Source: Bilabrum cf. latius (lineage: Eukaryota). Taken from it: a stretch of DNA of 64,000 nt. Below, piece after piece: positions 1 through 57,900 of this stretch. The first letter of the stretch is position 1, and each line of letters starts with the position of its first letter. The position numbers and the translations under genes were made by a program. The notes below the pieces were generated by a model. It ran no database searches. It was not told where the DNA came from and saw only the letters and a list, made by a program, of their open reading frames with translations. The stretch is from the NCBI GenBank assembly GCA_965178125.1, contig OZ237772.1, positions 496,001-560,000 of the forward strand, in the 5' to 3' direction.

Positions 1-585
1 GAGCTAGTAGCCTTCGGCTCGGGTGGAAACGACTGCGCTCGCGCGGCGGCAGGCGCCGGAGCTGGCGCCTCTACCTGCGATGGGTTGGAAAAGGATCCGA
101 ATCGTCAAGTGTGACATTGAATCGGTACAGTTATATGCAGCGAAACATGCATGCATGCCGGTGGCTTGAAGTTTCAGCTCGTCGCTCGCCGGTGGTGAAC
201 GGTTCAGAGCGTGAGGCCGCAAGTCGCATCAAAAAGGCGCTATCAATCGACACAGCCTCACCGACTTTGCAGTCTCAATATCATCGTTCGATAAGTTAGA
301 TGCACCGCAACCCATGATTAGCGGTCCTACAGGTTTGGGCTCGAAATGCGCACGCTGATTGGCACCGAAGAACCGCCGGAGCGAACCGAAAAGGGGATCG
401 GCACCGTGACGAACCACAGGCAACGGTGGATGCAAGCACCATGCAAGGCTTTGCCCCCGCATGGTCCAGCGAGAACCTGAGATATTGCTGGTGTAGTAAC
501 AAGTAGGACCGTGCAAGGCGCACCACGTGACTGGAATTGAAAATCGCTGCTCTCAGCGCAAAGCAGCCAACACGCCTGCTTAAAA

Positions 586-3417
586 TCAGAACGGCCTCGC
601 CCCTCTCTTGCCCTTGCCCCCGCGCTTGCCCTTGCCCTTGGCACCGCCCCGGTACATCCCCACGCGATTCGCGCTCTGCCACTGCCTCCTCCCGCTGGCC
701 CCTGCCGCATCCGCAAGCCCTGCCCCCGCCCTCGCCTTGTCGCTCAGGCCCCCGTACCCGACGGCCGCCACTGCCTCATACTGCCGGCCCACCGCCCCGC
801 TTCCGCTCCCCGTCTGCGCCTCTGCCGCGGCCACCTGGCGAGCGTTGTTCGCGAACGACCGCAGCGGATCTGCACCGCCCATCCCCCCCCTGGCCCCCGC
901 CCCAGGGGCCATCTGCCTCCGCCTCTTGCGCTCCCGGCGACTGCCCCCCTGGTCCAGTCCGCCACCCGCCGCCTCCGCCGCGGCCTTGATCGAATCCGGA
1001 ATCAAATAGTCCGGCAGCTTGCCCAGGTGCGCCCGCACGGCAGCCCCCGCCCCCCTGGCTCCCTGCCTCAGTTTCTGCGCGAGGGCCTCCTTGTCCCTCG
1101 GGTTGGCCTCGAAGTGCGCCTGCAGCCTGGCCGAGTTGAGCATCTCCCTCCGGAGATCTTCCGCGCGGGCATGCCGCACCTTGGTCCTTGTTATGCTCTG
1201 CAGCACGTCGTCCACTCTGTACCTGAAGCCCTCCACCTCTCTCGCGTCGAAGGGCAGGGGCGCGGGCTGGGGCCCACCGTCCTCCCCCGGTGCCTGCGAG
1301 GCCCTCAGCTCCTCCAGCAGCGACTGCTCCGCCTTGTTCAGCGTTGTGACGAGTGAGACGGCGGCTCCGCTGGCTCCCCCGCGAGCCACCCTCCCGATCC
1401 TGTGCCTGTATGCCCGCGCGTCGGCCGGCATGTCCACGTTCACGACAGTGCCCACCCCCCTAAGGTCGATTCCACGGGCAATGCCGTATTCCGCGTCGGT
1501 GCCTGGACCCCTGCCCCCGCTGCTCTTGCCGTTGCCCCTGCTCCTGCTTGGCCCGAATCGCTCTTTCTTCTCCTCGTCCTCCTCTAACTCAGCGCGGGGC
1601 CTCTTGCGGCCAGCCGATGCCTTGGGAGCCCCGGACTTGCCGCCCCCCTCCCCCTCCCCCTCCCCCTCCTCATCGTCATCGTCATCCTCATCATCGTCGT
1701 CATCATCCTCCTCATCGTCATCGCCAGCATCCTCCTCATCGTCGTCTCCCTCGCTTCCACTCTGTTCCCCCCCATCGCCTTTCGCGCCGACAGCCTCCTC
1801 CTACTCCTCCTCTTCGTCGCTTTCACTTTCACCTTCACTTTCACTTTCGCTATCACTTTCACTTTCGCTATCACTTTCGCTGTCGCTGTCCTCCTCTGCC
1901 CCTCCCAGCGCCCCATCGGTGGCCACAAGGTAATCGAACATGCCCCGCTCAAACTCGCGGAGCACACGAAGCCTAGAGTTGGCAGGAAGTTCGCCGTGGA
2001 CAGCGGCGCACGGCACACCAAAGGCCTCCAGTAGCAGCCGCACCCTGTAGCACTCGTCAGTGTCTTTCACGAACAAAATCGCCCTCCCGCTGATGAGCCG
2101 CAGCTTGATCAGCGAGAACAGAAGCAGCGGCTTGTCCCCCGGCCGCACCTCGATCGCGTACTGCGCCAGCTTCCCGTCAGTGGGCGCGTCCTCCAGCCTC
2201 AGGACCGCGGGCGCAGTCAGCACGAGCTTCCTGAGAGCGTCCAGCTCCGTGGTCATTGTGGCAGACACGAGCATCCTCTGGCACCCCCGAGGGACCCACT
2301 CGGCCAGCCGAGCCATGGCCCCACCGTGCCCGAACGACAGGACCGCGTCAGCCTCGTCCACCACCAGCACCTGCAAGTGCCGCAGGCAACCGACCAGCGA
2401 AGCAGCGGCCTCTGCCCCGCTGGGCAAAGCCGCCGCCGCATCGGCTCTATCCTTCGCCTCCTGCTCAGCGTCCTCGTCGCCCGCCTTGAGCCGGGCCCTG
2501 AGGGCGGCCTTCTGCGCCCGCCTGGCCTCCTTGCCCTTGGCTGCGTCCAGCGCGCGCTTGCCCCGGTGAGTGAAGGCGTCGGGTCCCACCTGCAGCATCT
2601 TGCCCTTGGTCCTGCGCTGACGAGTGCGCTTGGCGTGCCTCTCGGCAGCCCGCACCAGCCGGCCCGGAGTGGCCACGATCACGTCGGGGCACTCGTCCAG
2701 CAGGTCCATCTCCTCGGATGGGGTCTGCGAGCCGTCCAGGGCCGCGATTCTGAGCACGTCCTGGCAGTAGTGCGCCAGTCGGGCGAGGGCCGCTCTGGTC
2801 TGGGCCACCAGCTCCCGTGTGGGGGCGAGGACGGCAGCGAGGATGCGGCGGGTGGGGGCGGCGCCCAATGTGCCGGCGCCGGAGGAGGAGGAGGAGGAGG
2901 AGGACGCAGCCGTACTGGAAGCCGCGGATGAAGAAGATGATGCCAGCTCGCCGCCGGCTCCTGCTGCGGCCGCTGCGTCTGCCTTTGCCTGCAATACCCG
3001 CTAGAGAAGGGGCAGCCCGAACGCTGCGGTTTTGCCGCTGCCTGTGCTCGCCCGTACCACTAGGTCACGCCCACTCAGTGCCAGCGGCACGGCCTACGCC
3101 TATACTAGAGTAGGATGAACCCACCCGATGAACGCCACTGCCTTGGTCAACCGTGAATCCAGTCCTGCAAGTGCGAAAAGCAGCGAGAGTTGCAGTTGGT
3201 GCTTTCAGCGATGAAACAATGCAGTACTTGCGATTGAGGCATTAAGGTGATGCGCATGATACAAATTTAAGAACAAAAGGGAAGATAAGAATGTGATCTC
3301 ACCAAGCTCGAGGGTAGCGAAGGTCTTCTCCTGGTCAAGCAATCGGGTGTTTACGGTCGTTCCCCGGGCAGCCGCATCGGTTGCGCCGACCTAATCTCCA
3401 GTTTTCACAAGGGACAT
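586..3417 (-). CDS. DDX56: DEAD-box RNA helicase, DDX56/Dbp9 family (2 exons: 3417-3303, 3164-586; TAG read as Gln)
   Basis: Q-motif [15 protein letters not shown], motif [52 protein letters not shown], and C-terminal [16 protein letters not shown]...LPDYLIP typical of Dbp9. In-frame TAG at 3391, 3100, 3094, 3001 and 1801. Intron 3165-3302 (GTGAG...TGCAG). Ends TGA at 586. Confidence 0.92.
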
Positions 3418-3584
3418 TGAAACGCAATTTCAGAGAATTAAGCTATTTTGCCGAGCCTCGAAAGAAACAGGCGCAAATAAGAGGTAACCGCGCAGCTGAA
3501 ACTGTGTTCGCTGCACTCGTCACATGCAAACAGCAACAGTCGAGCGAGCAAGACCTAATTGCCTGGCTCTACCCGCCTGGCTGA

Positions 3585-4472
3585 TCATGCCGCGTCACTA
3601 CCTTCTCTCGATATTACTTCCCTTCTCCAATCCTCCAGTCCGATCGCGTTCACCTGCCCAGCGAGCGCCTGCCCCGCCCCTCCAGCCAGCGCCTCGGCCA
3701 CCCCGGCCCCCCCCTCCCCGATGTGGGGCAGCCACGGAGGCATCTCGCGAACCATGCCACCGGCGGGGCCTCCTCCCTTCCGCACCCCCTCCCGCAGGCC
3801 CAGTGCCAGCGTTGCGTGCAGGTCGCCCCCGTGGGCCTTAGTTCTCAGCTGCTCCCCGCCTGCATCGCATTGCGCTGGGCTGCCCTCGGGGCATCGTCCC
3901 AAGGGGAGATCGCCTGCCCATGCGCTGAACGGGGGCACGCCTGGTGTGAAGTCGTGCACCGTCACGTTCTCCCACCCCATGAATGTGCCGAAGGGGGTCA
4001 CCTTGCGATTCAGGCGCACCGGTGTCTGGAGGGTGCGGTCGATCTCGAGCGAGACAGAGCCCATCACGATCGGGCCCAGGTCTTCGTGCCACGTGTGCCT
4101 CTGAATCTTGCCATCGTTCAGTGTTTCGACAGCATCGCTATGGGCGCTGCCCTCAGGGTTGACGACCATGGAGAAGGGCAGACTGGCTCGCTCAGCAGCA
4201 ATCTAGCAGGAAAAGGCACACTTCTTCGGTGACTCCAGGTGAAAAGCTGTCGCCGCACCGTCCTGCTCGTATTTATAAACACTAATTCCCTTGCTAGACC
4301 AATATGCCACAGTCTCCGGGCTCCAATACATTGAAATGTTTGCGTGGGCCTGCAGCGTGGGAGCTCCCGCAGTCATGCGAACATTTGCCGTAAACATCTC
4401 GGGCGGCTGCCATGCAAAACAATGGCAGAGAGACATAATTGCTACTACTATCGCTAACACATGCGGTTGCAT
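3585..4472 (-). CDS. Secreted protein of unknown function (possibly ependymin-related fold), paralog of the 9408-10360 gene
   Basis: Signal peptide MQPHVLAIVVAIMSLCHCFA. ORFs 4203-4472 and 3585-4169 are in one frame, joined by TAG 4203-4205. Ends TGA. Shares WxEDLGPIVM...RKxTPFGxFxGWENVT with the second copy. Confidence 0.75.
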
Positions 4473-4615
4473 TGGACACTGCGCGGCTTAATGTGAAAAA
4501 TGCAACTTGGTGCATTATAACGTGTTGGTTGTAAATCGAATCCGATTTAGCACGGCCGGCGCTCCCATCCTTGCAAGTGCCCATCTGTGCTGTCGCAGTC
4601 AGTTGGCATGAAATA

Positions 4616-8396: not shown

Positions 8397-9266
8397 TCAT
8401 GTCCCGAACCCAGCTCCGGCCCTGCCCAGTCCCGTCCCTGCCCCCTCTTGATCCCCGCCCCCCAGGACGAGCTCCCTGAGGCTGCCCGCCCCACCTGCGA
8501 ATGGGTCCGTGACCAGATCCAGCTCGTGGGCCTATCCCCCCGCCGATGCACCTGCACCAGCACCTGCACCTGCACCTGCACCGCCAGTGGCCTGTGTCGC
8601 CGATGCAGAGGCAGATGACGAGGAGGAGGCCGCTCCCGCTCCCGCTCCCGCCCCAGCACCGGCACCGGCACCGGCATCGCCATCGCTCGTTGCGGCAGCA
8701 GTCGATGGTGCGCGCAGCCCAGCAGCGGCCTCGGTCTCAAGTTGAACCAGCCGGTCTGCGGCCTAGCTTGCTTTTTGCTGGTCTCTGTCTCGAATCAATT
8801 CGGCGATCGCTGCTTTGGTGGCAAGCTCCAGCTGTTCTGTCACTGGAGCGAGCTCCTCTTTCAGGTCCCATGCAGGGCGCCTAGGGGCAAGCTTGATGGG
8901 ATCCAAAGCATCCAATTGATCCGGGGCTACTCGTTCCATTGCCTGCAAGGTATGCATTAGTCATGAGAAAGGGGACAAGAAGGCCTCAGCCGCACACAGT
9001 ATAATGGACACCACGATTCATGCAGCCGGGCTTACTTTCTCTGCTAGCCTGGCTTCATCAGACCTTGTCTACGATCTTTCACTTTCGACCAGTTGCTTTG
9101 CAGCCATAGATGGCAAAGCTATGCTACTGTGAGACCTGGTGCCATCCATGCCTGGCTGCTCACTGGTCTAGTCACTCTACTCTTTCTGAACCCCCTCACT
9201 GGAGCCCTAGACCTACGATGGCGTGTAGTTCTTAAATACGACCCGGCGTTTCTTCGTTGCACTCAT
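8397..9266 (-). CDS. CCDC12: CCDC12/Cwf18-like splicing factor (2 exons: 9266-9036, 8942-8397)
   Basis: N-terminal VFKNYTP and C-terminal LAPRRPAWDLKEELAPVTEQLELATKAAIAELIRDR match Cwf18 motifs. Intron 8943-9035 (GTAAG...TGCAG). About 7 in-frame TAG. Ends TGA at 8397. Confidence 0.8.
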
Positions 9267-9407: not shown

Positions 9408-10360
9408 ATGTACTCGTGAGGAATGAATGAAAGTAATACTTGGTACCACGTGACCGAATCATGTGGCTAAATAACACCGTACATGTCTAGGGCGGCACGA
9501 TCACCACATCCAGGATCTTACCCTTCCCATCCCTTGGTTCTAGTCGTATTATGATCCAAAATGAATCCATAGAACTGTCTTGAGAATCTTTTAAGTCATT
9601 TGGACGATTATTCGTGTTTCCATTTCGCAGTATGGTCGCTGTGCTGAGCTCCGCTGCTGCCATTGCAGCAAGCGTGCCTACGTTCCCACCGTCTTTCACG
9701 GCGCAAGAATTCATTCGAGTGCAGCAGACAGGCCAGCCGCTGCAGGAGGGCAACTAGACCAGCTACTGGTCGCAGGGCGCCGTGAAGAACGCCACGACCT
9801 ACACGGGCACCCGCGGCACCACGGTGTACCTTTTCGACGAGGAGGGCTCCTTCGGCCACGGAAACGTATACGTTGCCTTTGCAGACCGTTGCCAGTACTA
9901 CTGCGGCAATGGAATGCTTCAGGAGGACCTCGCAGACACGCTGGAGGCCCCCGAGTACCTGCACAATGCCAAGTTCACCGGGTCTGGCACATTTGACGGC
10001 ATCAAGGTCAACAACTATGCTTGGAACGAGGACCTCGGCCCCATCGTGATGAACTCGCTCACTCTGGCAGTGAGACCCGACACTGTAGCACCCGTGCACC
10101 AGACCCGCAAGCTGACCCCGTTCGGAAACTTCATCGGCTGGGAGAACGTGACTTGGAACTCGTTCGTGCCAGGCGAGCCCCCGGCCAGCGCCTGGAACAT
10201 CCCCAACAAGGAGTACTGCGAGCGAGGTAGCGAGGCCCAGTGCCAGCAATTCGAGACCAAGACTGTGCGCGTGGAGGGGCAGGAGGTGCGTGTCCCGCAC
10301 AGCCCCCGGCAGGTGCTGCTCAACCTCGAGGCCAGGTGGGAGCAGAACGGGTCCCTGTGA
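9408..10360 (+). CDS. Secreted protein, paralog of the 3585-4472 gene (proposed 8-nt first exon 9408-9415, intron 9416-9630; alternative start ATG 9632)
   Basis: Hydrophobic N-terminus MVAVLSSAAAIAASVPTFPPSF. In-frame TAG at 9755. WNEDLGPIVMNSLTL...RKLTPFGNFIGWENVTW. Ends TGA. Confidence 0.75.
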
Positions 10361-10826: not shown

Positions 10827-13357
10827 AAGACCGGAACCACAGCCCCGCGATTCGCTCGGTTGCCTGTGTCCCATCCACCAAAACCCCAACCGCAGCCTCG
10901 TCCTCCCTCTCGCCCTCGTCCTTCTCGCCACCGTCTTCGTTATCCTCGTCCTCATCGCTTCTCTCCAATTCTGACGTGCACGCCCCTGCCCATCTCAGCC
11001 TTGATAGACCACTCCCCTCTCCCAGACCGGCCTAGATCTAGGACAGCCACACCGTAACATCCTCACTCGTCACAGTGGACTGCCCCTCCCGACTGGCAGC
11101 AAACACCAGCTCCACCCCGATGACCGTGCAGGGCCCATCCACTACTGCACGCAGCCGCCCCATCGCCCCTGCATTCTCCTCCCCGCCCGCCTCCCGCAAG
11201 ATGCCCCACTGGCTCATGGACAGTGGCAGTGCCCTAGTCCTGCCCAGCCGACACATGGGTCTACCCTCGCTTGCATTGTCTGCCCCGCTCCTGTCCACTT
11301 CGTCCTCATCCTCACCCCCGTCCCTGTCCCATTCCCTATCCACTCCGCCGCCACCAGCATCCGCTTCTCCACCGGCATTGCTTGCTTGCTCGAGCACAAG
11401 CCTGCACCCGGCCCCAACTCGATTACAGATCTCCGTAGCTGTTCGCTCCGCGGCCCATGCCTCCTAGCCTCCATCGGCCTCCCCCTCCATCCCGGCTCTA
11501 GACTGCTGCAAGGGTGGCCCGGGGCCCAGCAGCACAAGGAGACGGTGAAACTCGCGACTGGCAGCAATGTCGGATTTAGCCGGGGATGGCAGGGTGTAGG
11601 GGACTGCAGGCAGACCCTCTGAGCCGATCCCCTTCCGTACCGTGTCTGCGTGAGGACCTGCTCCAAGTGCTCCCTGTCCCGCTCTGGCAGGACCACCTGA
11701 ACCTGCTCCTGCCCCTGCACCCGCGTTACCGCTCGCACACGCACCAGCACACGCCCCCGCACAAACGCCTGCATGCAAACCTGCAACTGCGTTTGCACCT
11801 GCCCCTACTCCTGCATTCCCGCTCGCATATGCACCAGCACACGCCCCCGCACACACATTTGTGCGCGCAACTGCGCCGGCATCAAGCCGGTCCCCTGCAG
11901 CCTTGGCAGCCGCATCATCATCATCACCTATTAGCTTCTCACTCGTCACACATCCCCACCCCCAGAAGAGAGCTAGATCACAAGGCACAGCAGGAGGGTG
12001 CTCCGAGTCCCCTGCTCCTCCTGCCTTCGCCGCTGTACCTGCTCTCGCAGTGTCACCAGCCGAAGCGGGGCTGCCGGCAGCACTGCCGGCAGCACCACCA
12101 CCTGCTTGCCGCACCTCTGCAGCTCGCGATGCTCCGCTCTCATGTGTACTATCTCTTTCCTCTTGTTCCCTGGCTTTCAGCTCCCTCTTCCTCCTCAGAG
12201 CCTCGTAGAAGCCTCCCTTCTTCTCTTGCCCACGCCCCTACCCATGCCCCTGTCCTTTACCTTGAGTCTTTCCGCGGCCGTCCTACAAATTCCTCCCTCC
12301 CCTCACTTTGTCTGGCACTTTCACACCTCTAATTTCACCCCTTTCCCCACCACCAGCCTCCTCTGTGCCCCCAACCGGCAAGGCCTACGGGCCCCCCGCC
12401 TGCACCTACCCGCATCTAACCCTCACATCTTTCGCCTCCATCACCTTCCAGTGCCACTTGCCGCGGCCCGGGCTTGCGTCTTCCCAGCCCAGGGACCGAC
12501 CGTGCCCCTTCACACCAGCATGCGATGCACTCGGCTCGCTGAAGTCGTGCACCTCGGACCAGCGGTTGTTGAAGGGGTGCAGCCCGGCAGCCTGAAGCAG
12601 CTCCCCGTGGCTCCTCTGTGGCACAGGGGGGTGATCGCCGGGTGCGCCAGGGTTATCACCTCGAACAGCAGTATCTGGCAATGCTCCATCATCCTGGCCG
12701 CCCGTGGTGCCCCCTGCATCTTCGGTCCGAGTCGCGGCGGGAGGAGGAGGACCCGGCAGCATGGCCCGAGGGAGGGCAGCGGCCCAGCACGCCACCCTGA
12801 CTCTCCGGGAGCCCTCCAGGATGGGGCGGCTAGCGGTGCACAGAAATAAATCGCAGTCGAAGATAGCCCTGGTGCGGAGTTGCTGCCCGCAGAAAAACAC
12901 GGAGCAGTTGCGGCAGGAGCGCAGGAAGAGAGAGGTGCGGCAGGCAGCCACCAGGATGGTGCAGTTTTCGCATCGGTCTACGGTGACTTGCTCGGTAGCT
13001 CCAAGGACAAGAATTGTGCTATTCGTGCACTCTGCCAATTTGAACGGAAGTCCGGACACCTGGCTGCGTATGGCTGGAATAATAGGAATTCACTGGGAGT
13101 ATAACAGGTGCACTTCGTAGCTTTATGACCCTTCATCCAGCATTGTCTCACAAATCAGATCGAACAACTAGCTCAGAATTTATGCCAGACACGCGATAGT
13201 CTGATGCAGGGTGCAGCTTCTCCATTGCAGCTTTGCGCTCCATCAGTTTCTGCATCCCTCCTTTCTCGATGGAAGCCATGGCAACAGAGCTATCTGCCCC
13301 ATCGATACTGGGTATTGTATGGACATGTTCTTCAACGTGCGAACTACCGCATCCCAT
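10780..13357 (-). CDS. RP2: RP2/XRP2-like TBCC-domain protein with long low-complexity insertions (2 exons: 13357-13152, 13063-10780)
   Basis: MGCGSS acylation motif. TBCC beta-helix FKLAECTNSTILVL...VTVDRCENCTI...SLFLRSCRNC...GQQLRTR...RPILEGS and AGLHPFNNRWSEVHDFS. Intron 13064-13151. ORFs 12406, 11464 and 11038 are in one frame joined by TAG. First TGA at 10780. Confidence 0.8.
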
Positions 13358-23572: not shown

Positions 23573-23735
23573 TTTCTTTTGAACGCACGGGACTGCTTGT
23601 GGCCGCTCACTAATATACCACATTCAGAATGCTAAGTGCACTGCTCAATCAGCAGTTGCAGTGGTGCGCGTCATCTGGTTTGTACGCCCAAATTGAGCTA
23701 AAGTGTCTTGTTAACACGCGTGTTCTGTTGTTATC

Positions 23736-25751
23736 ATGTTAAGGCCCTGTCGCTCGTGGAGAAGTGCTGCCACCCGCACGATTCGCGCCGGTGTGGTCGC
23801 AACTGGCTCCCTGGCTGCCACGGCTCGGATTTCATCGTGCGGAGCCCCGAAGTCTGGATCCTCTGGGCGTTGTATGTCAACTAGTGTGCTAGGATAGGAT
23901 GGCATCGCGCTGGGGGTGGATAGTAGCACGCAGGGCGTCAAGGTGGTGGCAATCGATTCCGCGCTCAAGATCGTCCACAGTACTGCGCTCCGATATGACG
24001 ACGACCTGCCTGAGTATGGAACCACCAATGCAGTGCACGAGGGACCGGAGCCGGGTGAAGTCACCCAGCCGACGGCCATGATCGCGGACGCCATAGATCG
24101 CGCCTTTATGCGCATGAAGGAGGAGGGTTTCCAGTTCGAGAGGGTGCGAGCAGTCAGCGGGAGCGGGCAGCAGCACGGGAGTGTCTACTGGGCTCGTGGT
24201 GCGGACGAGGGACTGGCCGCGATGGACCCGGGGCAGTCCGTGGCTGAGCAGCTGCCCGCGCTGCTGGCCCGTTCCCGCAGCCCGATCTGGATGGACTCCA
24301 GCACGCGGCCGCAGTGCAGTGCACTCGAGGAGGCCGCGGGGGGCCCCGAGGCGCTGGCTAGAGCCACGGGGTCCAGGGCATACGAGCGCTTCACGGGGAA
24401 CTAGGTGGCTCGGCTTGTGCGCGGGGGAGGTGCCCCTGGGTCCAGGAGCAGCAGCTCGGGTGCTGCTGGATCGGAGGGGCAGGGGCAGGGGCAGGCCGAT
24501 GGAGATGGCGCGGCTTTGGCGGATCGACTGTCCCGCGTGTCTCTGATCTCCTCCATGGGGGCCTCCTTGCTGGCGGGGCATGTGGCACCAATCGACTACA
24601 GCGACGGGAGCGGGATGAACCTGCTGGACATCCGGGGAACAGGGGACGGGAGCCAGGGCATCGAGTGGCTGGGCGAGGCACTGGAGGCCTGCGGGCCAGA
24701 GGGGGGCAACGGGGCGGATCGGCTGCGGGCGTGGCTTGGGGATCCGGTGCCCTCTCATGCCCCCGTTGCGGGGGAGGTGTCTGCCTTCTGCAGGGAGAGA
24801 TACGGATTCGGAGCCGATGTCACGGTGGCGGCGTGGTCTGGGGATAACCCCAACAGTGTGGCTGGCCTGAGGCTGTCACAGCCGGGTGAAATCGCCGTCT
24901 CGCTGGGCACCAGTGACACAATCTTCGGTATCGCGGGCGCGAGGGACGCTGCTCCGGGCCTTGAAGGACACGTGTTCGTGTCTCCCAGCGACCCAGCCTC
25001 CCGCATGCTGATGCTGTGCTACAAAAACGGGTCTTTGACACGGGAGCGAGTGCGGGACATGCACGCGGGTGGGTCCTGGGAGCACTTCAACGCCGCTCTG
25101 GAGAGGACTTCCCCAGGGAACAACGGGACCATCGGGTTCTTCGTGGACCACCCGGAGATCACGCCCCCGATCCAGGCCACTGGAGACAGGCTCTTTGACG
25201 GGCAGGGCAGGCGGGTGGACGTGCCCGTGGCGCCGGATGGCTTGCCGGCCGAGAGCCGCAAGCTGGCGGCCCCCATGCCGGGGGCCAAGGGAGAGATGGT
25301 GTCCCTGGAATCAGTGGGGGGCAGCGATGCCGTGGTGCGAGCCGTGGTGGAGTCCCAGTTCCTCAGCATGAAGGCACACGGGGCGGCGCTGGGCCTGCAC
25401 TCGCCCAAGCGAGTCCTCGTCACAGGCGGTGCCAGTGCCAACGAGGCAGTGACCCAGGTGCTGGCGGACGTGCTGGGGGCACCCGTGTACGCTGCTGACA
25501 CTGCCGACTCGGCGGCTTTGGGAGCAGCCTACCGTGCAGTGCACTCTAGGGCGTGCGTGCGGGAGGGCAATTTCGTTCCCCTGGAGCAAGCCCTGAGGGA
25601 GTGCGCGGCTGCAGCGGGGCGGGACGGGGAGCCGTCGGTGCGTCTGGTGGCCAAGCCCCGGCCCTAGGCGCAGCTGGTGTATGCTCAGATGGAGGAGGCC
25701 TTCAGGGCGAGAGAAGCCGTGGTGATGGGGGAGAAGCCAGCCAGGGGGTGA
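23736..25751 (+). CDS. XYLB: Xylulokinase (eukaryotic XYLB type, FGGY family), ~671 aa, with presequence-like N-terminus
   Basis: LGVDSSTQGVK, AVSGSGQQHGSVYW, SPIWMDSST, TGSRAYERFTGN*, SLISS, IDYSDGSGMNLLDI, GDNPNS, SLGTSDT, LCYKNGSLTRE, TGGASAN, SAALGAA. TAG at 23895, 24402 and 25665. Ends TGA at 25749. Confidence 0.93.
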
Positions 25752-27566: not shown

Positions 27567-29333
27567 TCAGCCGTACACGACCTGCGCCAGGTTGCGCTCG
27601 TACAGCTCCTGCTTACCCGACTTGATGGCTGGCTCCCCGTTGTCCTGCACATACTTCCTCAGGTCCTCCAAAGTGACTCCCTCACCGCCGGTCTGCTCCA
27701 CCTTGGCACCCAGCCCATCGTCCCAGGACGAGTACCTCTGCTTCACGTCATCCAAAGTGACGCCCTTCTCGCGCATAGCCGCCGCATTCTTAAGACCAAG
27801 AGCCCACGCATCCATTGCCGCGATGTGCGCGATGAAGATGTCCTCCAAATCGGTGCTCTCCCGCCTCACCTTGCAGTCGAAGTTAAGGCCGCCAGAGTGC
27901 AGCCCGCCCTGCGCCAGCACGTGCAGCATCGACAGCGTCGTCCACTTGGCGTCCTGAGGGAACTCGTCCGTGTCCCAGCCGAGCAGCTCGTCTCCGGTGT
28001 TCGCGTCGATGGACCCCAGCATGCCGTACTGCGCCGCGATCATGATGTCGTGGTCGAACTGGTGCCCCGCCAGGGTGGTGTGGTTGGGCTCGATGTTGAG
28101 CTTGAACTCATTCTGCAAGCCGTACTGGTGCAAGAAGCCCATCGTGGTGGCGGCGTCGTAGTCGTACTGGTGCTTCATGGGCTCCTTGGGCTTGGGCTCC
28201 ACCAGCAGCTGGAAGGAACCGCCCAGGTCGTTCCTGCGCTGCACCACCATGCGGAAGAATGCAGCCGCATGGTCCAGCTCCCTCTTCACGTTGGTGTTGA
28301 TCGAGGACTGGTAGCCCTCTCTGCCCCCCCAGAAGACGAAGTTCTCCCCGCCCAGCTTGGTGTTCACCTCGAGCATCTTGTTCACGTTGGCGCCAGCGCG
28401 CGCGTACACGTGGAAATCGGGGCTGGTCATGCCTCCGTTCATGAATCGAGGGTCCGAAAACAGGTTGGTGGTGCTCCAGAGCAGCTTAGTGCCGGTCTCC
28501 TTCTGCTTGTTGTGCAGATACCCTGCCATGTGGTCCACGTTCTTCTCATAGTTGGACAGCTTGGCGTCATAGGGGGCCATGTCAGCGTCGTGGAAGGTGT
28601 AGTACTCCACGCCCAACTTGGAGAACAGCTCGAAGGCTGCGTCTGCGATGCGCTCGTACTCCCCCACGGTGTTGCTGTCGTCGTTCCAGGGCCTCTCCAT
28701 CGTGGGCATGCCGAAGATGTCGCGCCCCACCCAGCGGAAGGTGTGCCAGTAGCTGCGTTGGTAGGCAGAACGTACGGCATGTTGCAAATATTATTGACTT
28801 GTTATTGCAACTGGTTTGCACGCTCAGTAAGTCTTCGTTCAACCAAGCCACGCAGCAGGCACTCTACGGTAACAGCTGGATCTTGGGCACCAACATGCAA
28901 CTTCGGTCGATCCGTGCGCAGGGCTGATGCCGAGCGGGTACATGCCCTCACCATACTGCAAATCGCATATGCTCCTTCATGCTCTGCGGTTGTAAGGTGG
29001 AAAGAAACATCGAAGTGGACGAATGTGCAAGTAAATCGCAACGCCGGCGTGCTACGCGTCACGTGACGCGAGGCAGGAATGGCCTATTCATGCACGCCGG
29101 CCCGCTTGGCTCTCTTGAGAATTAAAGCAACATACCTTTCCTTCAATGATGGCTTCGGGATCGTAGTGGCGGAATGCCAAGGGGTTTGACGAGGACGCGC
29201 CCTCGTACTTGATCTGGCCGATCGAAGGGAAATACTGCCCGGATGACATCATGCGGATGGCTGAACGCCCACCGCTAACCATTCCCGAACGTGTCGACAG
29301 TCTAGAAGCAACAGACCGAGCAGCACGCATCAT
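27567..29333 (-). CDS. xylA: Xylose isomerase, class II, ~471 aa (3 exons: 29333-29136, 28983-28952, 28752-27567), with presequence-like N-terminus
   Basis: YFPSIGQIKYEG...NPLAFRHYD, MKEHMRFAVCYWHTF (restored by splicing), FHDADMAP, VFWGGREGY, EPKPKEPMKHQYD, LNIEPNHTTLAGH, GSIDAN, GWDTDEFP, GGLNFDCKVRRES. Introns 28984-29135 and 28753-28951. Ends TGA; no TAG codons. Confidence 0.96.
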
Positions 29334-32500: not shown

Positions 32501-33320
32501 CTGCCTGCACGGCCTCTCCCGGCAGCGCGCGCCCCGCCGCCTGCAGCAGCTGGAACCCATCCAGCACCCTGGGCCGCCTGCCTCCCAGGATGCGCTTCGT
32601 CGCGTCCCTCGGTGCACTCGTCACACCAGTGAGAGGGCCCGGGGCGGGAACACCGGCGCGTGGCCTAGGCTTTCTCCCTGGCCCCGGCCCAAGAGCCCCG
32701 CCCACCGACACAGCCTCCTGCTGCACCGGCCCTCTGGCGGGGCCACCGAGAGCCAGTCGGGCGCGGCTCTGGCTGCTTGGGCGGGAACTTGGAGGCGGGA
32801 CCAAACCCATCGATGATGCAGTGCCCATTCTGATCGCCTCTCTGCTGGCAGGTCCTGCGGCGGGCCGGCGCACGGGCACCGAGCGTCCCGCCCCTCGTAG
32901 CATGCCCTTGGCGGATGCTGCTCTGCTAGTGCCCGGCGGGCCGATGCCGCCCAGTCCGATTTTTAACTAGCTATCACGGTTCTATCGTAGCCTGCTGTCG
33001 ATAATCGCGGATCTGGCGAGCGCGTGGTGGGCGCGACCAGCGGCAAGCCTCGCGAGAGCAGCAGGGCTCGTAGCATCTGAGGGCGGTGGAATGGCCTGAT
33101 CAGCTCGAACCAGGACGCCTTCCAGAGGTGCTGCTGCATATGATTCCGATCGTAAATGGGCTATCCGATTATATCGAGATGCTTGCTATGCATGCAGCGA
33201 TGTGGGCATGAAGTCGGACTGTCTGGCCGGAGCTTCAGCGACTGTTGAAGGCAACTGATGCTAGTTCTACAATGTTCGCGAGCCGACTATGGTCGATCCA
33301 GCCAGCGATAGTCCATTCAT
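29529..33320 (-). CDS. ~1263-aa leucine-rich repeat protein, XRRA1-like
   Basis: VLDGFQLLQAAG...ADVSGRGL...SLERLDASDNAL...LQELALDCNSL and further LRRs. Five track ORFs in one frame joined by TAG; frame open upstream to ATG 33320 with only TAG. Ends TGA. Confidence 0.75.
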
Positions 33321-44549: not shown

Positions 44550-47094
44550 ATGTCGCTGGTGAGCCAAGGTGCCCTCTGCATCAGTCGTTGTCGGCCAAGG
44601 CTCATTTCCAGCTTGATTGTCGAAACAAATACCTGCTCATCGAATGCATGCTTTGCTGGAACTTGAGTTAGCTTTATGTGCACAACACTTGCATAAACTG
44701 CAGAAACTCATCGCTGGGGCAGCAGACACCCGGACAAACATGGTGAGAAAGATGCTGCGCCTGCAGATTGCGCCAGATCTGGATTTTTTGGCCGTGTGTT
44801 CTATCATCACTCGTGCTGCTGAAGTCGTATGCTCCTGATAGTCGGCCTTCGCACCCCTCGTCCCGCAGGTCAAGATCGCGGCGTCGCTTGCCGGCGTGAG
44901 CCTCGACGTGCAGGTGAAAGGTGAGGCGGGGCTGCGGGACCCCGAGGTAGCTGGAGCCCACATTCAGACCCTTCCCATGTTGGTAACAAGGCATGGCGCC
45001 CTGCCGCGGACGGATGCCATCTTGCGGTACGTGGCTGCTCTCCGCGAGGACGCCGGGCTTCTGGGCGAGGGCCCCTGGCAGCAGGCCCAGGTGGACCAGT
45101 GGCTCTCGGTGGCCATGGGGGACGCAGCGCAGGCTGCCGAGGCCTTCTTGGAAGGCTCTAAGGCAGGGGGCAAGGACGGTGCCAGCGTGTGCGCCGAGGC
45201 CACTCGCGAGCTGGTTCTCCTCGTCTCGATGCTGGACGCAGCGGTTGAGGCCAGCACCTTTCTCGTGGGCGAGCGACCCACACTCGCAGACGTGGCGCTC
45301 TGCTGCGCCCTATCCCCGGTGGTGGGACAGGGCAGGGCCATCGAGCCGCAGCCCGCACAGGCCCGCGTGCCCTCTTTCCTCCGGTGGTACCGCACCTGCC
45401 GGGCCCTGCCAGCATGTGCAGAGCACCTGGGCCAGGACGACTCGGGGCACCCCCTCGCCCTCGCTGGACATGGACCCGCTGTGCCCGCCGCCTCGGGGGC
45501 GGGCGCCGATGCACCAGCCTCCGTTACTGCGGCCCCCCGTGCCCCTGCGAGCTCTGGGTACCCCGGGGTGCCCCCGGAGGCCTGCGCCTCAGCTGGGGCC
45601 CTTGAGCCCTCCCCCGAGCTGCCTGCCCCCCGCTTCAACAGGGGTCGGCTGAGGGTGAAGGAGGTGCTGGCGGGTGGCAAGCAGCTGCTGGGACAGTCCA
45701 TCACGGTGGCCGGCTGGGTGCGCACCAAGCGGGGCCAGAAGAACCTCGCCTTCGTGGAGGTGTCGGACGGGAGCTGCGCCGCCGTGCTGCAGGCAGTGGG
45801 CTCGCCCGACTCGTACGAGGCCTTCTAGCAGAAGCAAGGCAAGGACGGCGCGGGGTCGCTGGAGAGGGACCTGGCGGAGGTGCGGACAGGGACTTGCGTC
45901 AGGGTGCAGGGCCGTGTGGTGGCCAACCCCAAGCCAGACAAGCCCGTGGAGCTGGAGCTGCAGGACCTTAGGGTGGTGGGCGGCGTGCCCGAGAAAGGAT
46001 ACCCCTTGGCCAAGGCGCGCATGAAGCTCGAGACGCTCAGGGAACACCAGCACCTCCGCATGCGCAGCCGCATTGGGGGTGCTGTGGCTCGCATGCGCAA
46101 CGCGCTCGCATTCGCCACGCACCGCTTCTTTTAGGAGCGCGGCTTCTACTACGTGCACACGCCGCTCATCACCGCAAGCGACGCGGAGGGCGCCGGTGAG
46201 ATGTTCCGGGTGAGCTCGCTCGACGCAGAGGAGCCCCCGCGCCTGCCCAACGGCCGCGTGGATTTCTCCAAGGATTTCTTTGGGCAGCAGTCGCACTTGA
46301 CTGTGTCGGGTCAGCTGCAGGTAGAGTCGTTTGCGTGCTCGATGAGCGACGCCTACACCTTCGGGCCTACTTTCAGGGCCGAAAACTCCCACACCTCAAA
46401 GCACCTGGCCGAGTTCTGGATGATCGAGCCAGAGATCGCATTTGCAGACCTGGAGGCAGACATGGACCTGGCCGAGGACTACCTCAAGTTCTGCACGGCA
46501 TACGCTCTCAAGCACTGCGGAGACGACCTGGCCACGTTCGAGATGGCATGCGAGAAGGGGCTGCGAGCCAGGCTGCAGGCCGTGGTGGACGCGCCTTTCA
46601 AGCGCATCACGTACACGGAGGCGCAGGAGCTGCTGTGCGACAAGGCTCTGCAGAAGAAGCACAAGGCCAAGTTCAGGGAGGCGCCCGGGTGGGGCAAGGA
46701 CCTGGCCAGCGAGCACGAGAAGTTCCTCACCGACAGCGTGTTCAAGTGCCCCGTGGTGGTCACGGACTGGCCCAAGTCCATCAAGGCGTTCTACATGCGC
46801 GCCAACGAAGACGGGAAGACCGTCGCAGCCATGGACGTGCTTGTGCCCAAGATCGGGGAGGTGATCGGCGGGTCTGCCCGAGAGGAGCGGCTGGACGTGC
46901 TCAAGGCGCGCATGGCCGAGGCGGGCGTGGAGGAGGAGCACCTGGGTTGGTACATGGACCTCAGGAGGTTCGGATCTTGCCCGCACGCAGGCTTTGGGCT
47001 TGGATTCGAGCGGCTGCTCATGTACGTCACCGGCATGGAGAACATCCGTGACGTGATCCCCTTCCCCAGGTACCCTGGCCATGCGGCTTTCTGA
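44550..47094 (+). CDS. asnS: Asparaginyl-tRNA synthetase (bacterial/organellar-type core) with N-terminal GST-like domain (exons 44550-44558, 44704-44742, 44869-47094)
   Basis: [111 protein letters not shown]-terminal AILRYVA...AQVDQWL...[13 protein letters not shown] is GST-like. TAG at 45826 and 46132. Ends TGA. Confidence 0.93.
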
Positions 47095-47344: not shown

Positions 47345-47514
47345 GACACTCACACAGCCTCAGCTCCCTGTGCCTACTAGGACACCTCGCCACCCCCACC
47401 GACACTCACACAGCCTCAGCTCCCTGTGCCTACTAGGACACCTCGCCACCCCCACCGACACTCACACAGCCTCAGCTCCCTATGCCTACTAGGACACCTC
47501 GCCACCCCCACCGA
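47345..47514. repeat. 56-bp tandem repeat x3 overlapping the last codons and stop of the 47462-50686 gene
   Basis: Unit GACACTCACACAGCCTCAGCTCCCTRTGCCTACTAGGACACCTCGCCACCCCCACC at 47345, 47401 and 47457. Confidence 0.95.
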
Positions 47515-54907: not shown

Positions 54908-57900
54908 ATGCGACTTCATTCCATAGCTCGCCGCATGCAGCCTCACTTTCCAAAACTGCCTTGGAGCCTGGCCAGATACAATGTGAACAACGCCGCCACG
55001 GTCTCGCTCCCACCTCGCCAGAGTAAGCTTGTAACGGCAAACCACTGAGGGTCCATCCCATGTGCATAAGTCAAGTTCTATCTATTTTGCCGTTTTGATC
55101 ACCCCGCAGGATCCCCAATGGCGTCGGCCTACGACCCTAGCACGGAGATGGAGTGGGATGCTTGGTGGTAGCAGCATTTGGTAGCTCCAGGTGCAGCAAA
55201 GCGCATGATTAGTGGTATAGGCGAATCAAATAATACATTTTCAATGCTGCTGCCCCCGCCAAACGTGACTGGGGCGCTCCATGTTGGCCATGCGCTTACA
55301 GTTACGCTACAGGACGCTCTTGCTCGCTGGCAACGCGCGAGAGGTAAGCGGGTAGTATGGGTGCCGGGCCTGGATCATGCGGGGATTGCCACACAAGCAG
55401 TGGTCGAGAGGGAGCTGCTTCGCACCCAAGGCCTCACTCGGCATGATCTAGGCAGAGAAGAGTTCGTGCGGCGCGTCCATGAATGGACCAGGGAGTATGG
55501 TGGGCGCATTCGGCAGCAGATCAGGCGCATGGGGGCAAGTCTCGACTGGAGAAGAGAATTCTTCACGCTAGATGAGTAGAGGAGCAAGGCAGTCCGCAGG
55601 GCTTTCGTCCGCATGGCGCGGTCTGGCCTGCTATACCGGTCCACTCGCAAGGTGCACTGGTGCCCGCACCTGCGCACTGCCCTCTCCGATGCAGAGGTAG
55701 AGCCCACTAGAGTCAAGAACCAGATCCTGCATCTGCCTGTGCCGGGTGGTAACGGTGCAAATGCTGCACATGGCAGTAACAGTGGCACGCGCCCAGTCCG
55801 ACTCGGACTACTGTACTCGATCGGATACCCCCTGGCCCCGGACGCCCTGGCTTTAGTCTAGGACCACCAGGGGTCTGCTGTGGCTGAGTATCACGCTTCC
55901 ATGCAGGACTGGGGCACGGCCTCGTCCCACGAAGAGGGTGCATCTGAGGGCTCAGATAAGCCAGAGACAGAGTCAGGGAGTGCCTTGACACCCAGCGTGC
56001 CTGTCCTCCTAGTGGAAACGACTCGCCCCGAGACGCTGCTGGGCGACGTGGCAGTTGCGGTGCACCCTGAAGATGGCAGGCTCGGTCCGATGGCAGCCGC
56101 GGGGTGCCATGTAGTGCAGCCCATGTCCCTTCCAGGAACAGAGGAGGGGGTACAGGCAGCCATGCAGGCGCTGCGGGAGGGGTTTGCTTCAGGTGGAGCG
56201 GAAGGCATGAAGCGAGCAGCTAATGCTGTGGGGATTCAGCTGGTGCCCATCGTGGCTGACCCAGTTCTAGTGGACCCTGAGCTCGGCACAGGCGCGGTGA
56301 AGGTGACCCCGCACCACGACCCCTCGGACAGGGAGTGCGCCGATCGGCTGGGACTTCCCCTGGGCTCTCCCGTGTACGGGCCGGACGGTGTGGTGCGAGG
56401 TCTGTTCCAAGGCAGCGCTGCTGGGGCCCAGCTGGCGGGGTAGGATCGGCTGGATGCAAGGCAAGGTATAGTGAGGGTATTGCAGGGGTAGGGATTGTAC
56501 TGCGGGGAACAGCCGTGGGAGATGAGCGTTCCTTTGTGCTCCAGAAGCGGGGACCTGATCGAGCCGATGTGGATGCCCCAGTGGCACGTGAGGTGCGGGC
56601 CCCTCGAGTAGGCACAAGAGCAAGGCGGACTCAGAGCAGGCCACGCACAGGTGAGCGAGTGCCCCGGTGCGACAGGTTTGATGCCCCTAGCGCGAGACAT
56701 GGTGAATTCGGGCGCAATAGACATGATGCCTGAGGATGGAGCGAAAGAATGGAACCGCTGGCTGGGAGCCAACCAGGACTGGTGCATCTCCAGGCAGCTG
56801 TGGTGGGGGCATCGTATTCCAGCTTGGGTAGTATGCGATGGTACAAGAGCTGCGCCCATATCATTTGGATGCGGGAGCAAGGCGAGCGGTGGCGAGGGTG
56901 TTGCCCTCAATTTGGATGATGCAGCTCGATAGGCGTGGGCCCGCCGAGGCGTGGTGCTGCAGGCGACAGGCGAGCCCGGCAACGAGATAGATACCACGTG
57001 GCACGCGTGGGTAGTGGCAGAAGATGCAGAGGAGGCACGCGGTCTGTGGGTGGCATTTTGCGAGGAGACATGCATAGGAAGCTCAGCAGGGTTTGGAAGC
57101 GCAGTCCTCGAGCAAGACGAAGACGTGCTGGACACGTGGTTTTCGTCAGGCCTGCTACCCCTGAGTGCTCTGGGATGGCCATGGGCCCCGGGTGAGGTAG
57201 CCGCTGTTGGTGAATCCCTGCATGCTGACTCACAGCTTCCAGGTGTATCCGTACAGGAGCACAAGCATCGAGTCAGGGGCATCGGCGGAGAGTGGGGCTA
57301 GCCGGAGTCCAGCCCTGGGCGAGGGCTAGACTTTCCGCTGGAGGAATTGCCCCCGAGTCACAGAGACATGTATCCGTTGAGCACCATGGAAACAGGGGCA
57401 GACATTCTGTTTTTCTGGGTTGCTCGCATGGCGATGATGTGCGCTTCGGCAGGACCAGATGGGCTCGGGCGGGCAGGAGACGGGGGCAATGCGGCCTCCA
57501 TGCTGCGTCCGTTCAACTAGGTCCTGCTGCATGGGATGGTGCGGGACGGAGAGGGTCGCAAGATGAGCAAGAGCAAGGGCAACGTGATCGACCCCATGCA
57601 CGTGATCCAGGGGCGGCCGCTGGAGGCTATGGTCGAGGACATCGAGCAGAACCACGTGCTGCCGGCCCGGGAGAAGAAGCGGGCCATCAAGGCAACTCGC
57701 AGGGACTTCAAGGATGGGCTCCCGCAGGCAGGCGCGGACGCACTTCGGTTTGCCATGTGCTACCATGCCTCATAGGCTGCTGGGATCAACATGGATGTGC
57801 GACGGGTGCATGAGTTCAGGCTATTCTGCAACAAGGCCTGGCAGTCAGTGCGATTCTCCTTGCAGCATATTGAGGCCGATGCTGCGGCCGTGGGTGCTGC

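What the first reader, a model, noticed from the sequence alone, without database searches (positions are those of the whole stretch)
3001..3123. Invariant Gln of the DEAD-box Q-motif is encoded by TAG
The minus strand reads [54 protein letters not shown] 3100-3102 sits at the invariant adenine-binding Gln of the Q-motif (PTxIQ). TAG 3001-3003 matches the usual Gln after motif I (PxLQ). This is the best single site identifying the amino acid as Gln rather than Leu, Tyr or Glu.
Basis: partly seen in the sequence, partly recalled or inferred. Interest (0 to 1): 0.85.

Follow-up and report, generated by a model that had tools for sequence, protein, structure and literature searches.

The report
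TAG codon read as glutamine
In this GC-rich protist DNA, whose nearest named relative is the marine flagellate Cafeteria, the "stop" codon TAG sits inside essential genes exactly where related proteins have glutamine, so the organism very probably reads TAG as glutamine, a rare genetic-code change I found no published report of in this group.

Summary
On the minus strand, TAG codons lie at 3100-3102, 3094-3096 and 3001-3003, inside an 897-codon DDX56/Dbp9-type DEAD-box helicase gene. The gene has two exons and five in-frame TAGs, and it ends in TGA.

TAG 3100-3102 falls on the Q-motif glutamine, which is Q in 41 of 41 orthologs with a residue there. Contigs from three RNA-like public runs (two studies) splice out a 138-base GT..AG intron and keep the TAG-bearing exon unchanged. 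The segment is therefore transcribed, exonic and unedited.

The pattern is window-wide:
- 19 long ORFs (16,070 codons) carry 96 in-frame TAGs, no TAA and no TGA.
- Conserved-Q columns are also hit by TAG in ValRS (107/119), AsnRS (91/120) and xylulokinase (131/142).
- A profile score over 13 alignable TAG columns ranks Gln first (1.93; Lys and Glu 0.96), and 55 of 55 control codons recover their standard meaning.

TGA is a true stop: four conserved C-termini end on it. TAA never appears in frame.

The tRNA and eRF1 behind the change could not be examined, because no genome is held. UAG-only-to-Gln is known in Iotanema and some ciliates. Eight literature searches found no stramenopile nuclear case. 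I class it as a new member of a known kind.

The parts
3303..3417 (-). Exon 1 of the DDX56/Dbp9-like helicase gene. Start ATG at 3417-3415, with an in-frame TGA five codons upstream.
   Evidence: Sequence; spliced model checked (115 + 2579 bases, length divisible by 3, ATG...TGA); contigs of X5, X6 and X7 cover 3302-3449/3470 joined to exon 2.
3391..3393 (-). In-frame TAG, codon 9 of the spliced CDS (N-terminal, not alignable).
3165..3302 (-). 138-base intron, GT..AG on the minus strand.
   Evidence: Joint 'skips 138' in one contig each of X5, X6 and X7 and none in the DNA-like run X1; intron ends GTGAGATC...ACTTGCAG.
586..3164 (-). Exon 2 of the helicase gene, including the TGA stop at 586-588. 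It carries all the helicase motifs.
3100..3126 (-). Q-motif [14 protein letters not shown] at 3100-3102 is CDS codon 60.
   Evidence: Column is Q in 41 of 41 orthologs; aligned to Q of 5ivl, 7pli and 4ct4.
3094..3096 (-). In-frame TAG, CDS codon 62, on a variable column.
   Evidence: Column K 15, A 10, S 4, Q 3, R 3, E 3, D 1, C 1, H 1, gaps 2.
3028..3051 (-). Motif I (Walker A), ASTGSGKT.
   Evidence: Pfam DEAD E = 6.6e-30.
3001..3003 (-). In-frame TAG, CDS codon 93, after motif I (LPLL-TAG).
   Evidence: Column Q 23 of 41, H 10, N 4, E 2, A 2.
2347..2358 (-). Motif II, DEAD.
1801..1803 (-). In-frame TAG, CDS codon 493, inside an acidic low-complexity insert.
   Evidence: the column is a gap in 35 of 43 orthologs.
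1381..1404 (-). Motif [10 protein letters not shown].
   Evidence: Pfam Helicase_C E = 2.5e-18.
57773..57775 (+). In-frame TAG in the valyl-tRNA synthetase ORF (55070-59125; 11 TAGs) on a conserved Gln column.
   Evidence: Q in 107 of 119 homologs with a residue.
46132..46134 (+). In-frame TAG in the asparaginyl-tRNA synthetase ORF (44839-47091) on a conserved Gln column.
   Evidence: Q 91 of 120, N 17.
24402..24404 (+). In-frame TAG in the xylulokinase ORF (23715-25748), in the motif YERFTGN-TAG.
   Evidence: Q in human xylulokinase 4bc2; Q in 131 of 142 representatives with a residue.

Best explanation
The window is nuclear DNA of a GC-rich eukaryote. Its nearest named relative in three searches is the bicosoecid stramenopile Cafeteria roenbergensis. 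In this organism TAG is a sense codon translated as glutamine. TGA is the working stop codon, and TAA is not used inside genes. The helicase gene at 586-3417 (minus strand) is a functional, spliced DDX56/Dbp9-type DEAD-box helicase. Its adenine-binding Q-motif Gln and four other residues are written as TAG.

Inferred, not shown: UAG is decoded by a tRNA-Gln with anticodon CUA, which is one base away from the standard CUG anticodon and cannot pair with UAA. The release factor eRF1 has probably lost efficient recognition of UAG while keeping UGA, and probably UAA.
For: Shown here:
1. The TAG positions and the otherwise open 872-codon ORF ending in TGA.
2. All DEAD-box motifs are present, with Pfam DEAD and Helicase_C matches.
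3. TAG lies on the invariant Q column in 41 of 41 orthologs and on the Q of three solved helicases.
4. Contigs of X5, X6 and X7 (two studies) join 3163 to 3302 across a GT..AG intron and carry 2916-3163 with no differing letters. The X1 contig is unspliced. The TAGs are therefore in mature mRNA and are not edited.
5. The spliced CDS runs ATG...TGA over 897 codons with TAG at codons 9, 60, 62, 93 and 493.
6. The pattern holds across the window. In 19 ORFs (16,070 codons) frame 0 has TAG 96, TAA 0 and TGA 0. Frames 1 and 2 have TAG 107 and 92, TAA 26 and 38, TGA 270 and 236.
7. TAG falls on conserved Q columns in ValRS (107/119), AsnRS (91/120) and xylulokinase (131/142).
8. The profile score over 13 TAG columns is Q 1.93, K 0.96, E 0.96, and 55 of 55 control codons recover their standard residue. 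Of the 32 Q-majority columns, the query has CAG at 17, TAG at 5 and CAA at 2.
9. TGA ends coincide with homolog C-termini: AsnRS 120/120 within 5 residues, ValRS 116/120, xylulokinase 130/149 and DDX56 35/43 within 20 residues.
10. A database protein (P0365) is 100% identical to xylulokinase residues 235-650. It begins just after TAG 230 and ends just before TAG 651, which is what standard-code gene calling would produce.

The mechanism is inferred from passages of PMC5304391: only a CUA anticodon reads UAG while ignoring UAA.
Against: - No protein-level evidence exists here.
- No tRNA gene is in the window (ARAGORN 0; Rfam 0) and no genome is held. The tRNA and eRF1 parts are therefore untested.
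- 8 of the 13 alignable TAG columns are not Q-majority. Lys is the commonest residue at 5 of them, Met at one (ValRS 458: M 81, L 19, Q 7) and Glu at two.
- The RNA nature of X5-X7 is the tool's guess, and it flags X5 as 'probably DNA'. I infer cDNA only because these runs hold the spliced form alone.
- The absence of in-frame TAA and TGA is partly by construction, since the ORFs were delimited by those codons.
- Two gene ends (cwf18, and the 1110-codon membrane-protein ORF) have TAGs where a stop codon could plausibly sit.
Confidence: 0.86

Rival explanations
1. TAG is a sense codon but stands for another amino acid: Lys or Glu, or Leu, Tyr or Ser as in other lineages.
For: Lys is the commonest residue at 5 of 13 alignable TAG columns and Glu at 2. 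UAG = Leu, Ser and Glu are known elsewhere (passages of PMC11687900).
Against: Five TAG columns are Q-majority, at 56-100% Q. Scores are Q 1.93 against K 0.96 and E 0.96. The pooled profile of 11 TAG columns (Q 0.34, K 0.18) resembles that of CAG columns (Q 0.25), not those of AAG, GAG, CTG, TAC or TCG. An invariant adenine-binding Gln is unlikely to be replaced in an otherwise intact helicase.
Confidence: 0.05
2. The code is ambiguous. TAG is read as Gln inside genes but still ends translation at some gene ends, depending on context, as in some ciliates and Blastocrithidia.
For: In the cwf18-like ORF the Pfam domain ends at residue 59 (profile position 134 of 135) and a TAG follows at residue 66. 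Solved homologs end 6 to 17 residues beyond the aligned part, whereas this ORF runs on for 121 low-complexity codons. The 1110-codon ORF has TAG at three of its last nine codons. TAG codons cluster.
Against: There are only two suggestive gene ends, and low-complexity extensions are common inside proven coding sequence here. All four conserved C-termini end at TGA. Xylulokinase TAG 651 is read through 27 codons before the stop, with homology to human xylulokinase continuing past it.
Confidence: 0.1
3. The helicase is a pseudogene, or the TAGs are assembly or sequencing errors.
For: Three stops within 34 codons would normally mark a dead gene.
Against: Four runs from three studies agree with the window with no differing letters at covered positions. 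The gene is spliced and otherwise open for 897 codons with every helicase motif. Many other conserved genes show the same feature. Only TAG is affected, never TAA or TGA.
Confidence: 0.01
4. Genomic TAG is converted to CAG in the mRNA by U-to-C editing, or TAG is passed only by inefficient read-through with near-cognate tRNAs.
For: Neither can be excluded from DNA alone.
Against: Spliced contigs keep TAG with no differing letters. With five TAGs in one essential gene and 11 in ValRS, low-efficiency read-through would yield almost no full-length protein. In-frame TAG is as frequent as out-of-frame TAG (96 against 107 and 92), so there is no selection against it.
Confidence: 0.03

Closest known systems
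UAG-only reassignment to Gln in nuclear genomes: Iotanema spirale (fornicate), Protocruzia tuzeti and two phyllopharyngean ciliate lineages (passages of PMC5304391, and PMC11687900); in effect NCBI table 15.
   Same: TAG is sense and aligns with Gln. TAA is not used as sense. TGA still terminates. The expected decoder is a tRNA-Gln(CUA).
   Different: The host lineage differs: the nearest named relative is Cafeteria, inside a stramenopile-like clade. The genome is GC-rich (58-70%) and TGA is the only terminator seen in this window (19 of 19 ORF ends). In Iotanema, UAA is described as the dominant stop. The tRNA and eRF1 were not examined here.
UAR = Gln codes (NCBI table 6): many ciliates, Ulvophyceae, Hexamita, Streblomastix, Amoeboaphelidium (list in PMC11687900).
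   Same: A stop codon is turned into Gln, probably through a mutated tRNA-Gln.
   Different: Those codes also read TAA as Gln. Here no TAA lies in frame in 16,070 codons, against about 20 expected if TAA:TAG followed CAA:CAG (113:551).
Other UAG-only nuclear reassignments: rhizarian exLh (Leu), Scotinosphaera (Ser), some ciliates (Leu, Glu).
   Same: UAG is uncoupled from UAA.
   Different: The amino acid differs. Here the conserved columns are Gln, and pooled frequencies at 11 TAG columns are L 0.03 and E 0.07, with S below the eight listed.
DDX56 (human) / Dbp9 (yeast) DEAD-box helicases of 60S ribosome biogenesis.
   Same: All motifs are present (Q, I, Ia, Ib, II, III, V, VI). The best hits are named DDX56/DBP9 by their sources.
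   Different: This protein is 897 residues long, with Ala/Ser-rich and acidic low-complexity inserts, and five of its codons are TAG.
Phage 'code 15' (TAG = Gln) in gut and rumen phages
   Same: The codon has the same meaning.
   Different: This is a cellular eukaryotic nuclear genome with spliceosomal introns, not a phage.

Membership tests
DEAD-box RNA helicase (DDX56/Dbp9 group) | Q-motif: aromatic residue upstream, then G-[FW]-x-x-P-T-x-[IV]-Q with an invariant Gln. The motif definition is recalled; the column was tested. | tested here: met
   GWVHPTLV followed by TAG at 3100-3102. The column is Q in 41 of 41 orthologs and in 3 solved helicases. It is met only if TAG = Gln.
DEAD-box RNA helicase (DDX56/Dbp9 group) | Motifs I (AxTGSGKT), Ia (PTRELA-like), Ib (TPGRL), II (DEAD), III (SAT), V (ARGID), VI (HRxGRxxR). 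| tested here: met
   All found by position. Pfam DEAD E = 6.6e-30 and Helicase_C E = 2.5e-18.
DEAD-box RNA helicase (DDX56/Dbp9 group) | Orthology to DDX56/Dbp9 rather than to other DEAD-box groups. | tested here: met
   The first 43 listed hits (P0002-P0044; E from 8.3e-147 to 1.9e-47) include the rows that JGI names DDX56/DBP9 and a Balamuthia ddx56. The next listed hits (E = 1e-38 and weaker) are mostly RRP3, DeaD and RhlE types, with a few unnamed rows. No reciprocal search was run.
DEAD-box RNA helicase (DDX56/Dbp9 group) | ATPase/helicase activity and a role in 60S biogenesis. | not testable with these tools
   Needs biochemistry or genetics.
Nuclear code with UAG = Gln only (table 15-like) | In-frame TAG in conserved, expressed genes. 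| tested here: met
   96 in-frame TAGs in 19 ORFs. The three helicase TAGs quoted in the finding (3001-3003, 3094-3096, 3100-3102) lie in spliced contigs.
Nuclear code with UAG = Gln only (table 15-like) | TAG aligns with Gln in homologs. | tested here: met
   5 of 13 columns are Q-majority (P = 3.6e-7). Score Q 1.93 against K and E 0.96. 55 of 55 controls correct.
Nuclear code with UAG = Gln only (table 15-like) | TAA is not a sense codon. | tested here: met
   0 in-frame TAA in 16,070 codons, and full-length ValRS, AsnRS, xylulokinase and DDX56 are recovered without crossing a TAA. This covers one window only and is partly by construction.
Nuclear code with UAG = Gln only (table 15-like) | TAA and TGA act as terminators. 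| tested here: inconclusive
   TGA does: four conserved C-termini end on it. For TAA, 0 of 19 ORF ends use it, so its role is unknown.
Nuclear code with UAG = Gln only (table 15-like) | A tRNA-Gln with CUA anticodon, and altered eRF1 N-domain motifs. | not testable with these tools
   No tRNA in the window and no genome held.
UAR = Gln code (table 6) | TAA is also read as Gln. | tested here: not met
   0 in-frame TAA where about 20 would be expected from the CAA:CAG ratio.
Ambiguous stop/sense codes | The same codon also terminates at gene ends. | tested here: inconclusive
   Two suggestive ends: cwf18 TAG at 8763-8765, and three TAGs at 47480-47491. No expression data were laid on them.

The most novel reading that the evidence does not exclude
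This would be the first nuclear stop-codon reassignment in a stramenopile, with UAG uncoupled from UAA. In the boldest version, UAG is not fully reassigned. It would be read as Gln inside genes but still terminate at some gene ends (the cwf18-like gene and the 1110-codon membrane protein), which would make this a GC-rich, culturable-looking system with a context-dependent stop/sense codon outside ciliates and trypanosomatids.
Probability: 0.12. Interest if true: 0.8.

Novelty: new member of a known kind. Interest (0 to 1): 0.62.

Why it matters
Nuclear genetic-code changes are rare. Cases where UAG changes meaning while UAA does not are counted on one hand, per the passages read in PMC11687900 and PMC5304391. 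A further, independent case in a Cafeteria-related stramenopile would add a data point on how UAG and UAA become uncoupled, here in a GC-rich genome where TGA dominates termination.

There is also a practical consequence. Standard-code gene calling cuts this organism's proteins into pieces. P0365 in the public protein collection is exactly the xylulokinase fragment between two TAGs. Annotations and phylogenomic data sets built from this genome will therefore be wrong unless the code is set.

Tried and rejected
- Whole-genome access failed: no genome is held for this window. A tRNA-Gln(CUA) search, eRF1 inspection and genome-wide stop usage were therefore impossible.
- ARAGORN and Rfam found no RNA gene in the window.
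- ORF-length comparison under alternative stop sets was uninformative, because TGA is simply the commonest stop triplet in GC-rich DNA.
- A codon-usage log-odds profile around each TAG, meant to tell sense TAGs from terminal ones, discriminated too weakly (about 0.1 per codon) and was dropped.
- No listed run is on record as RNA ('no RNA holder listed'). The RNA nature of X5-X7 is inferred only from their spliced contigs.
- Earlier notes of this scan held nothing on this genome, only phage TAG = Gln cases.
- Eight literature searches found no paper on a nuclear UAG reassignment in a stramenopile. PMC13768787 and PMC11412368 matched only through their reference lists. Supplements were closed, and subscription papers are not in the library, so prior publication cannot be excluded.
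- The careful maximum-likelihood tree did not finish, so only the quick tree is reported.
- Pseudogene, sequencing-error and RNA-editing readings were considered and rejected (see rivals).
Full report
**The observation.** The only correction is that the Gly codon of GWVHPTLV lies at 3124-3126, just outside the stated range. With TAG read through, the frame is open for 872 codons (589-3204). It holds a fourth TAG at 1801-1803, has no TAA or TGA inside, and ends in TGA at 586-588.

**The gene.** The ORF matches Pfam DEAD (E = 6.6e-30) and Helicase_C (E = 2.5e-18). It carries the Q-motif and motifs I, Ia, Ib, II (DEAD), III (SAT), V and VI at the expected order and spacing. A search of the 5.8-billion-protein collection gave 974 hits at E <= 0.001 among 8,000 scored candidates. 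The first 43 of the 120 listed (P0002-P0044; E from 8.3e-147 to 1.9e-47) include the rows that sources name DDX56/DBP9. The next listed hits (E = 1e-38 and weaker) are mostly RRP3, DeaD or RhlE types, with a few unnamed rows.

**Where the TAGs fall in the helicase alignment.** I aligned those 43 of the 120 listed hits with the query.
- TAG 3100-3102: the column is Q in 41 of 41 sequences with a residue (2 are gapped).
- TAG 3001-3003: Q 23, H 10, N 4, E 2, A 2.
- TAG 3094-3096: a variable column (K 15, A 10, S 4, Q 3, R 3, E 3, D, C and H 1 each).
- TAG 1801-1803: inside a lineage-specific acidic insert (gap in 35 of 43).

HMMER alignments to the solved helicases CshA (5ivl), DbpA (7pli) and DDX6 (4ct4) also put the first TAG on their Q-motif Gln.

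**Transcription, splicing and editing.** One search for public runs found ten holders of the stretch in five studies. I laid four of them on 300-3800. Runs X5, X6 and X7 come from two studies, and the tool only guesses that they are RNA. Each has a contig that joins 3163 to 3302, skipping 138 bases whose ends on the minus strand are GT..AG. Each contig covers at least 2989-3163, and so all three TAGs, with no differing letters. X1 has one contig running unspliced from 1750 to 3800.

None of X5-X7 shows a piece across the intron, so I take them to be cDNA. This is an inference: the tool marks X5 as 'probably DNA'. The splice joins the frame to an upstream exon (3303-3417). That exon starts with ATG at 3417-3415, five codons after an in-frame TGA, and holds a fifth TAG at 3391-3393. 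The spliced CDS has 897 codons, with TAG at codons 9, 60, 62, 93 and 493.

**The rest of the window.** I scanned 30 ORFs, read with TAG = Q, against Pfam. 17 had at least one family at E <= 0.01: 9 of 10, 5 of 10 and 3 of 10. They include valyl- and asparaginyl-tRNA synthetases, xylulokinase, xylose isomerase, a heat-shock-factor DNA-binding domain, TBCC, rhomboid, S28 peptidase, cwf18 and B12D.

In 19 long ORFs (16,070 codons) the counts of the three stop triplets by frame are:

| Triplet | Frame 0 | Frame 1 | Frame 2 |
|---|---|---|---|
| TAG | 96 | 107 | 92 |
| TAA | 0 | 26 | 38 |
| TGA | 0 | 270 | 236 |

In-frame TAG is thus as common as out-of-frame TAG, while the other two stops are excluded over ORFs of up to 1,836 codons. 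Their absence is partly by construction, because the ORFs were delimited by TAA and TGA. However, the recovered proteins are full-length. Their TGA ends coincide with homolog C-termini: AsnRS 120 of 120 within 5 residues, and within 20 residues ValRS 116 of 120, xylulokinase 130 of 149 and DDX56 35 of 43. All 19 ORFs end in TGA. The six TAAs that bound ORFs on the 5' side lie before the likely start codon or in an intron.

**Which amino acid.** Three more TAGs fall on strongly conserved Gln columns.
- ValRS codon 902: Q in 107 of 119 homologs with a residue.
- AsnRS codon 431: Q 91 of 120, N 17.
- Xylulokinase codon 230: Q in human xylulokinase and in 131 of 142 representatives with a residue.

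Across the four alignments, 32 of 2,561 well-filled columns are at least 50% Q. The query has CAG at 17 of them, TAG at 5 and CAA at 2. Five of the 13 alignable TAG columns are Q-majority (binomial P = 3.6e-7), compared with 17 of 82 CAG columns and 2 of 10 CAA columns. A BLOSUM62 profile score ranks Q first (1.93), ahead of K and E (both 0.96) and R (0.47). The same score returns the standard residue for 55 of 55 sense codons that have at least 8 columns.

Results against Gln are as follows. Eight of the 13 columns are not Q-majority. Lys is the commonest residue at five of them, Met at one (ValRS 458: M 81, L 19, Q 7) and Glu at two. These are variable columns of the kind that CAG codons also occupy. 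Pooled over the three genes, CAG columns are Q 0.25, E 0.12, R 0.09 and K 0.08.

**TAA.** If TAA were Gln with the same A/G ratio as CAA:CAG (113:551), about 20 in-frame TAAs would accompany the 96 TAGs. There are none. This fits a UAG-only change. Whether TAA terminates genes is open, because no ORF end in this window uses it.

**The organism.** GC content is 58-70%, and the genes have spliceosomal introns. The best named hit is Cafeteria roenbergensis in all three searches: DDX56 at 54% identity over the best local alignment, ValRS at 38% and AsnRS at 62%. A quick maximum-likelihood tree of 42 DDX56 rows puts the query in a clade with Cafeteria and unnamed sequences (SH-aLRT 90). That clade sits inside a group (SH-aLRT 97) that also holds Tribonema, Chrysoparadoxa and Chrysophaeum. 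I left out P0027 and P0034 because they lack the N-terminal region. The careful search did not finish, and the query sits on a long branch. I therefore call the organism a stramenopile related to bicosoecids, without naming it.

**Mechanism.** Reading UAG while ignoring UAA requires a CUA anticodon. A tRNA-Gln(CUA) is one mutation away from tRNA-Gln(CUG), and such tRNAs exist in organisms with UAR = Gln codes. eRF1 changes that weaken recognition of the third-position G are expected (passages of PMC5304391). None of this could be tested here: the window has no tRNA and no genome is held.

**Comparison with what is known.** Passages of PMC11687900 list UAG-only-to-Gln changes in Iotanema spirale, Protocruzia tuzeti and two phyllopharyngean ciliate lineages. 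They also list UAG-only changes to Leu (a rhizarian, some ciliates) and to Ser (Scotinosphaera). UAR = Gln is listed for ciliates, Ulvophyceae, Hexamita, Streblomastix and Amoeboaphelidium. Eight full-text searches found no nuclear case in a stramenopile. The library lacks most subscription papers and supplements were closed, so prior description cannot be excluded. I class the finding as a new member of a known kind.

**Open points.**
- TAG codons cluster. There are 9 TAG-TAG pairs within two codons, against 2.45 expected when Gln codons are shuffled within genes (4 of 5,000 shuffles reach 9). The Q-motif pair is one of these.
- In the cwf18-like ORF a TAG follows the end of the domain by seven codons. 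Solved homologs end 6 to 17 residues past the aligned part, whereas this frame runs on for 121 low-complexity codons.
- Another ORF has three TAGs in its last nine codons.

The last two hint at residual terminator use of TAG but do not show it.

Noticed in passing
window-wide (19 ORFs); e.g. 3094-3102, 11032-11040, 33261-33269, 38585-38593, 41998-42006, 47480-47491: TAG codons cluster. There are 9 TAG-TAG pairs within two codons, against 2.45 expected when Gln codon identities are shuffled within genes (4 of 5,000 shuffles reach 9). The cause is unknown: local mutation, unannotated non-coding stretches inside ORFs, or something to do with translation.
   Followed up: partly
8400-8960 (-), TAG at 8763-8765: In the cwf18/CCDC12-like last exon the Pfam domain ends at residue 59 and a TAG follows at residue 66. 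Solved homologs end 6-17 residues beyond the aligned part, but this frame continues for 121 low-complexity codons to TGA. TAG may be acting as a stop here, or the protein may have a C-terminal extension.
   Followed up: partly
47465-47491 (-): The 1110-codon multi-pass membrane-protein-like ORF ends with TAG TAG GCG TAG followed by five sense codons and then TGA. It also has TAG TAG right after a candidate start Met at 50678-50683.
   Followed up: no
23715-25748 (+); database protein P0365: The public protein collection holds a 416-residue protein that is 100% identical to xylulokinase residues 235-650. This is exactly the piece between TAG 230 and TAG 651, so existing standard-code gene calls for this organism are truncated.
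   Followed up: yes
586-3417 and 44839-47091: The best hits of the helicase and of AsnRS are Cafeteria roenbergensis proteins with locus tags three apart (FNF31_00021 and FNF31_00024) on one 1,022,884-base contig. Here the two genes lie about 42 kb apart, which suggests conserved linkage.
   Followed up: no
23715-25748 (+) and 27570-28790 (-): Xylulokinase and a xylose-isomerase-like gene sit tail to tail about 1.8 kb apart. Pfam gave only a weak TIM-barrel hit for the latter, and the name rests on my reading of its sequence. The pair would form a xylose-utilisation pair in a protist. The isomerase exon has no TAG and GC3 of 0.88.
   Followed up: no
3588-4487 (-) and 9584-10357 (+): Two ORFs without any Pfam family share a long similar stretch (both contain EDLGPIVM, followed further on by TPFG.F.GWENVT). 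They look like paralogs of an unknown, probably secreted, protein.
   Followed up: no
window 300-3800 in runs X1, X5, X6, X7: Runs filed under three different coded organism labels (A, B, C) hold this stretch with no differing letters. A run's organism label may therefore not name the true source of this DNA. I did not pursue this.
   Followed up: no
1500-1900 (-) and 2880-2990 (-): The helicase carries long low-complexity inserts: an Ala/Ser run after motif I, and a Ser/Glu/Asp-rich acidic block between the two RecA-like domains. Public contigs break at these places (1636-1749 and 2868-2915).
   Followed up: no
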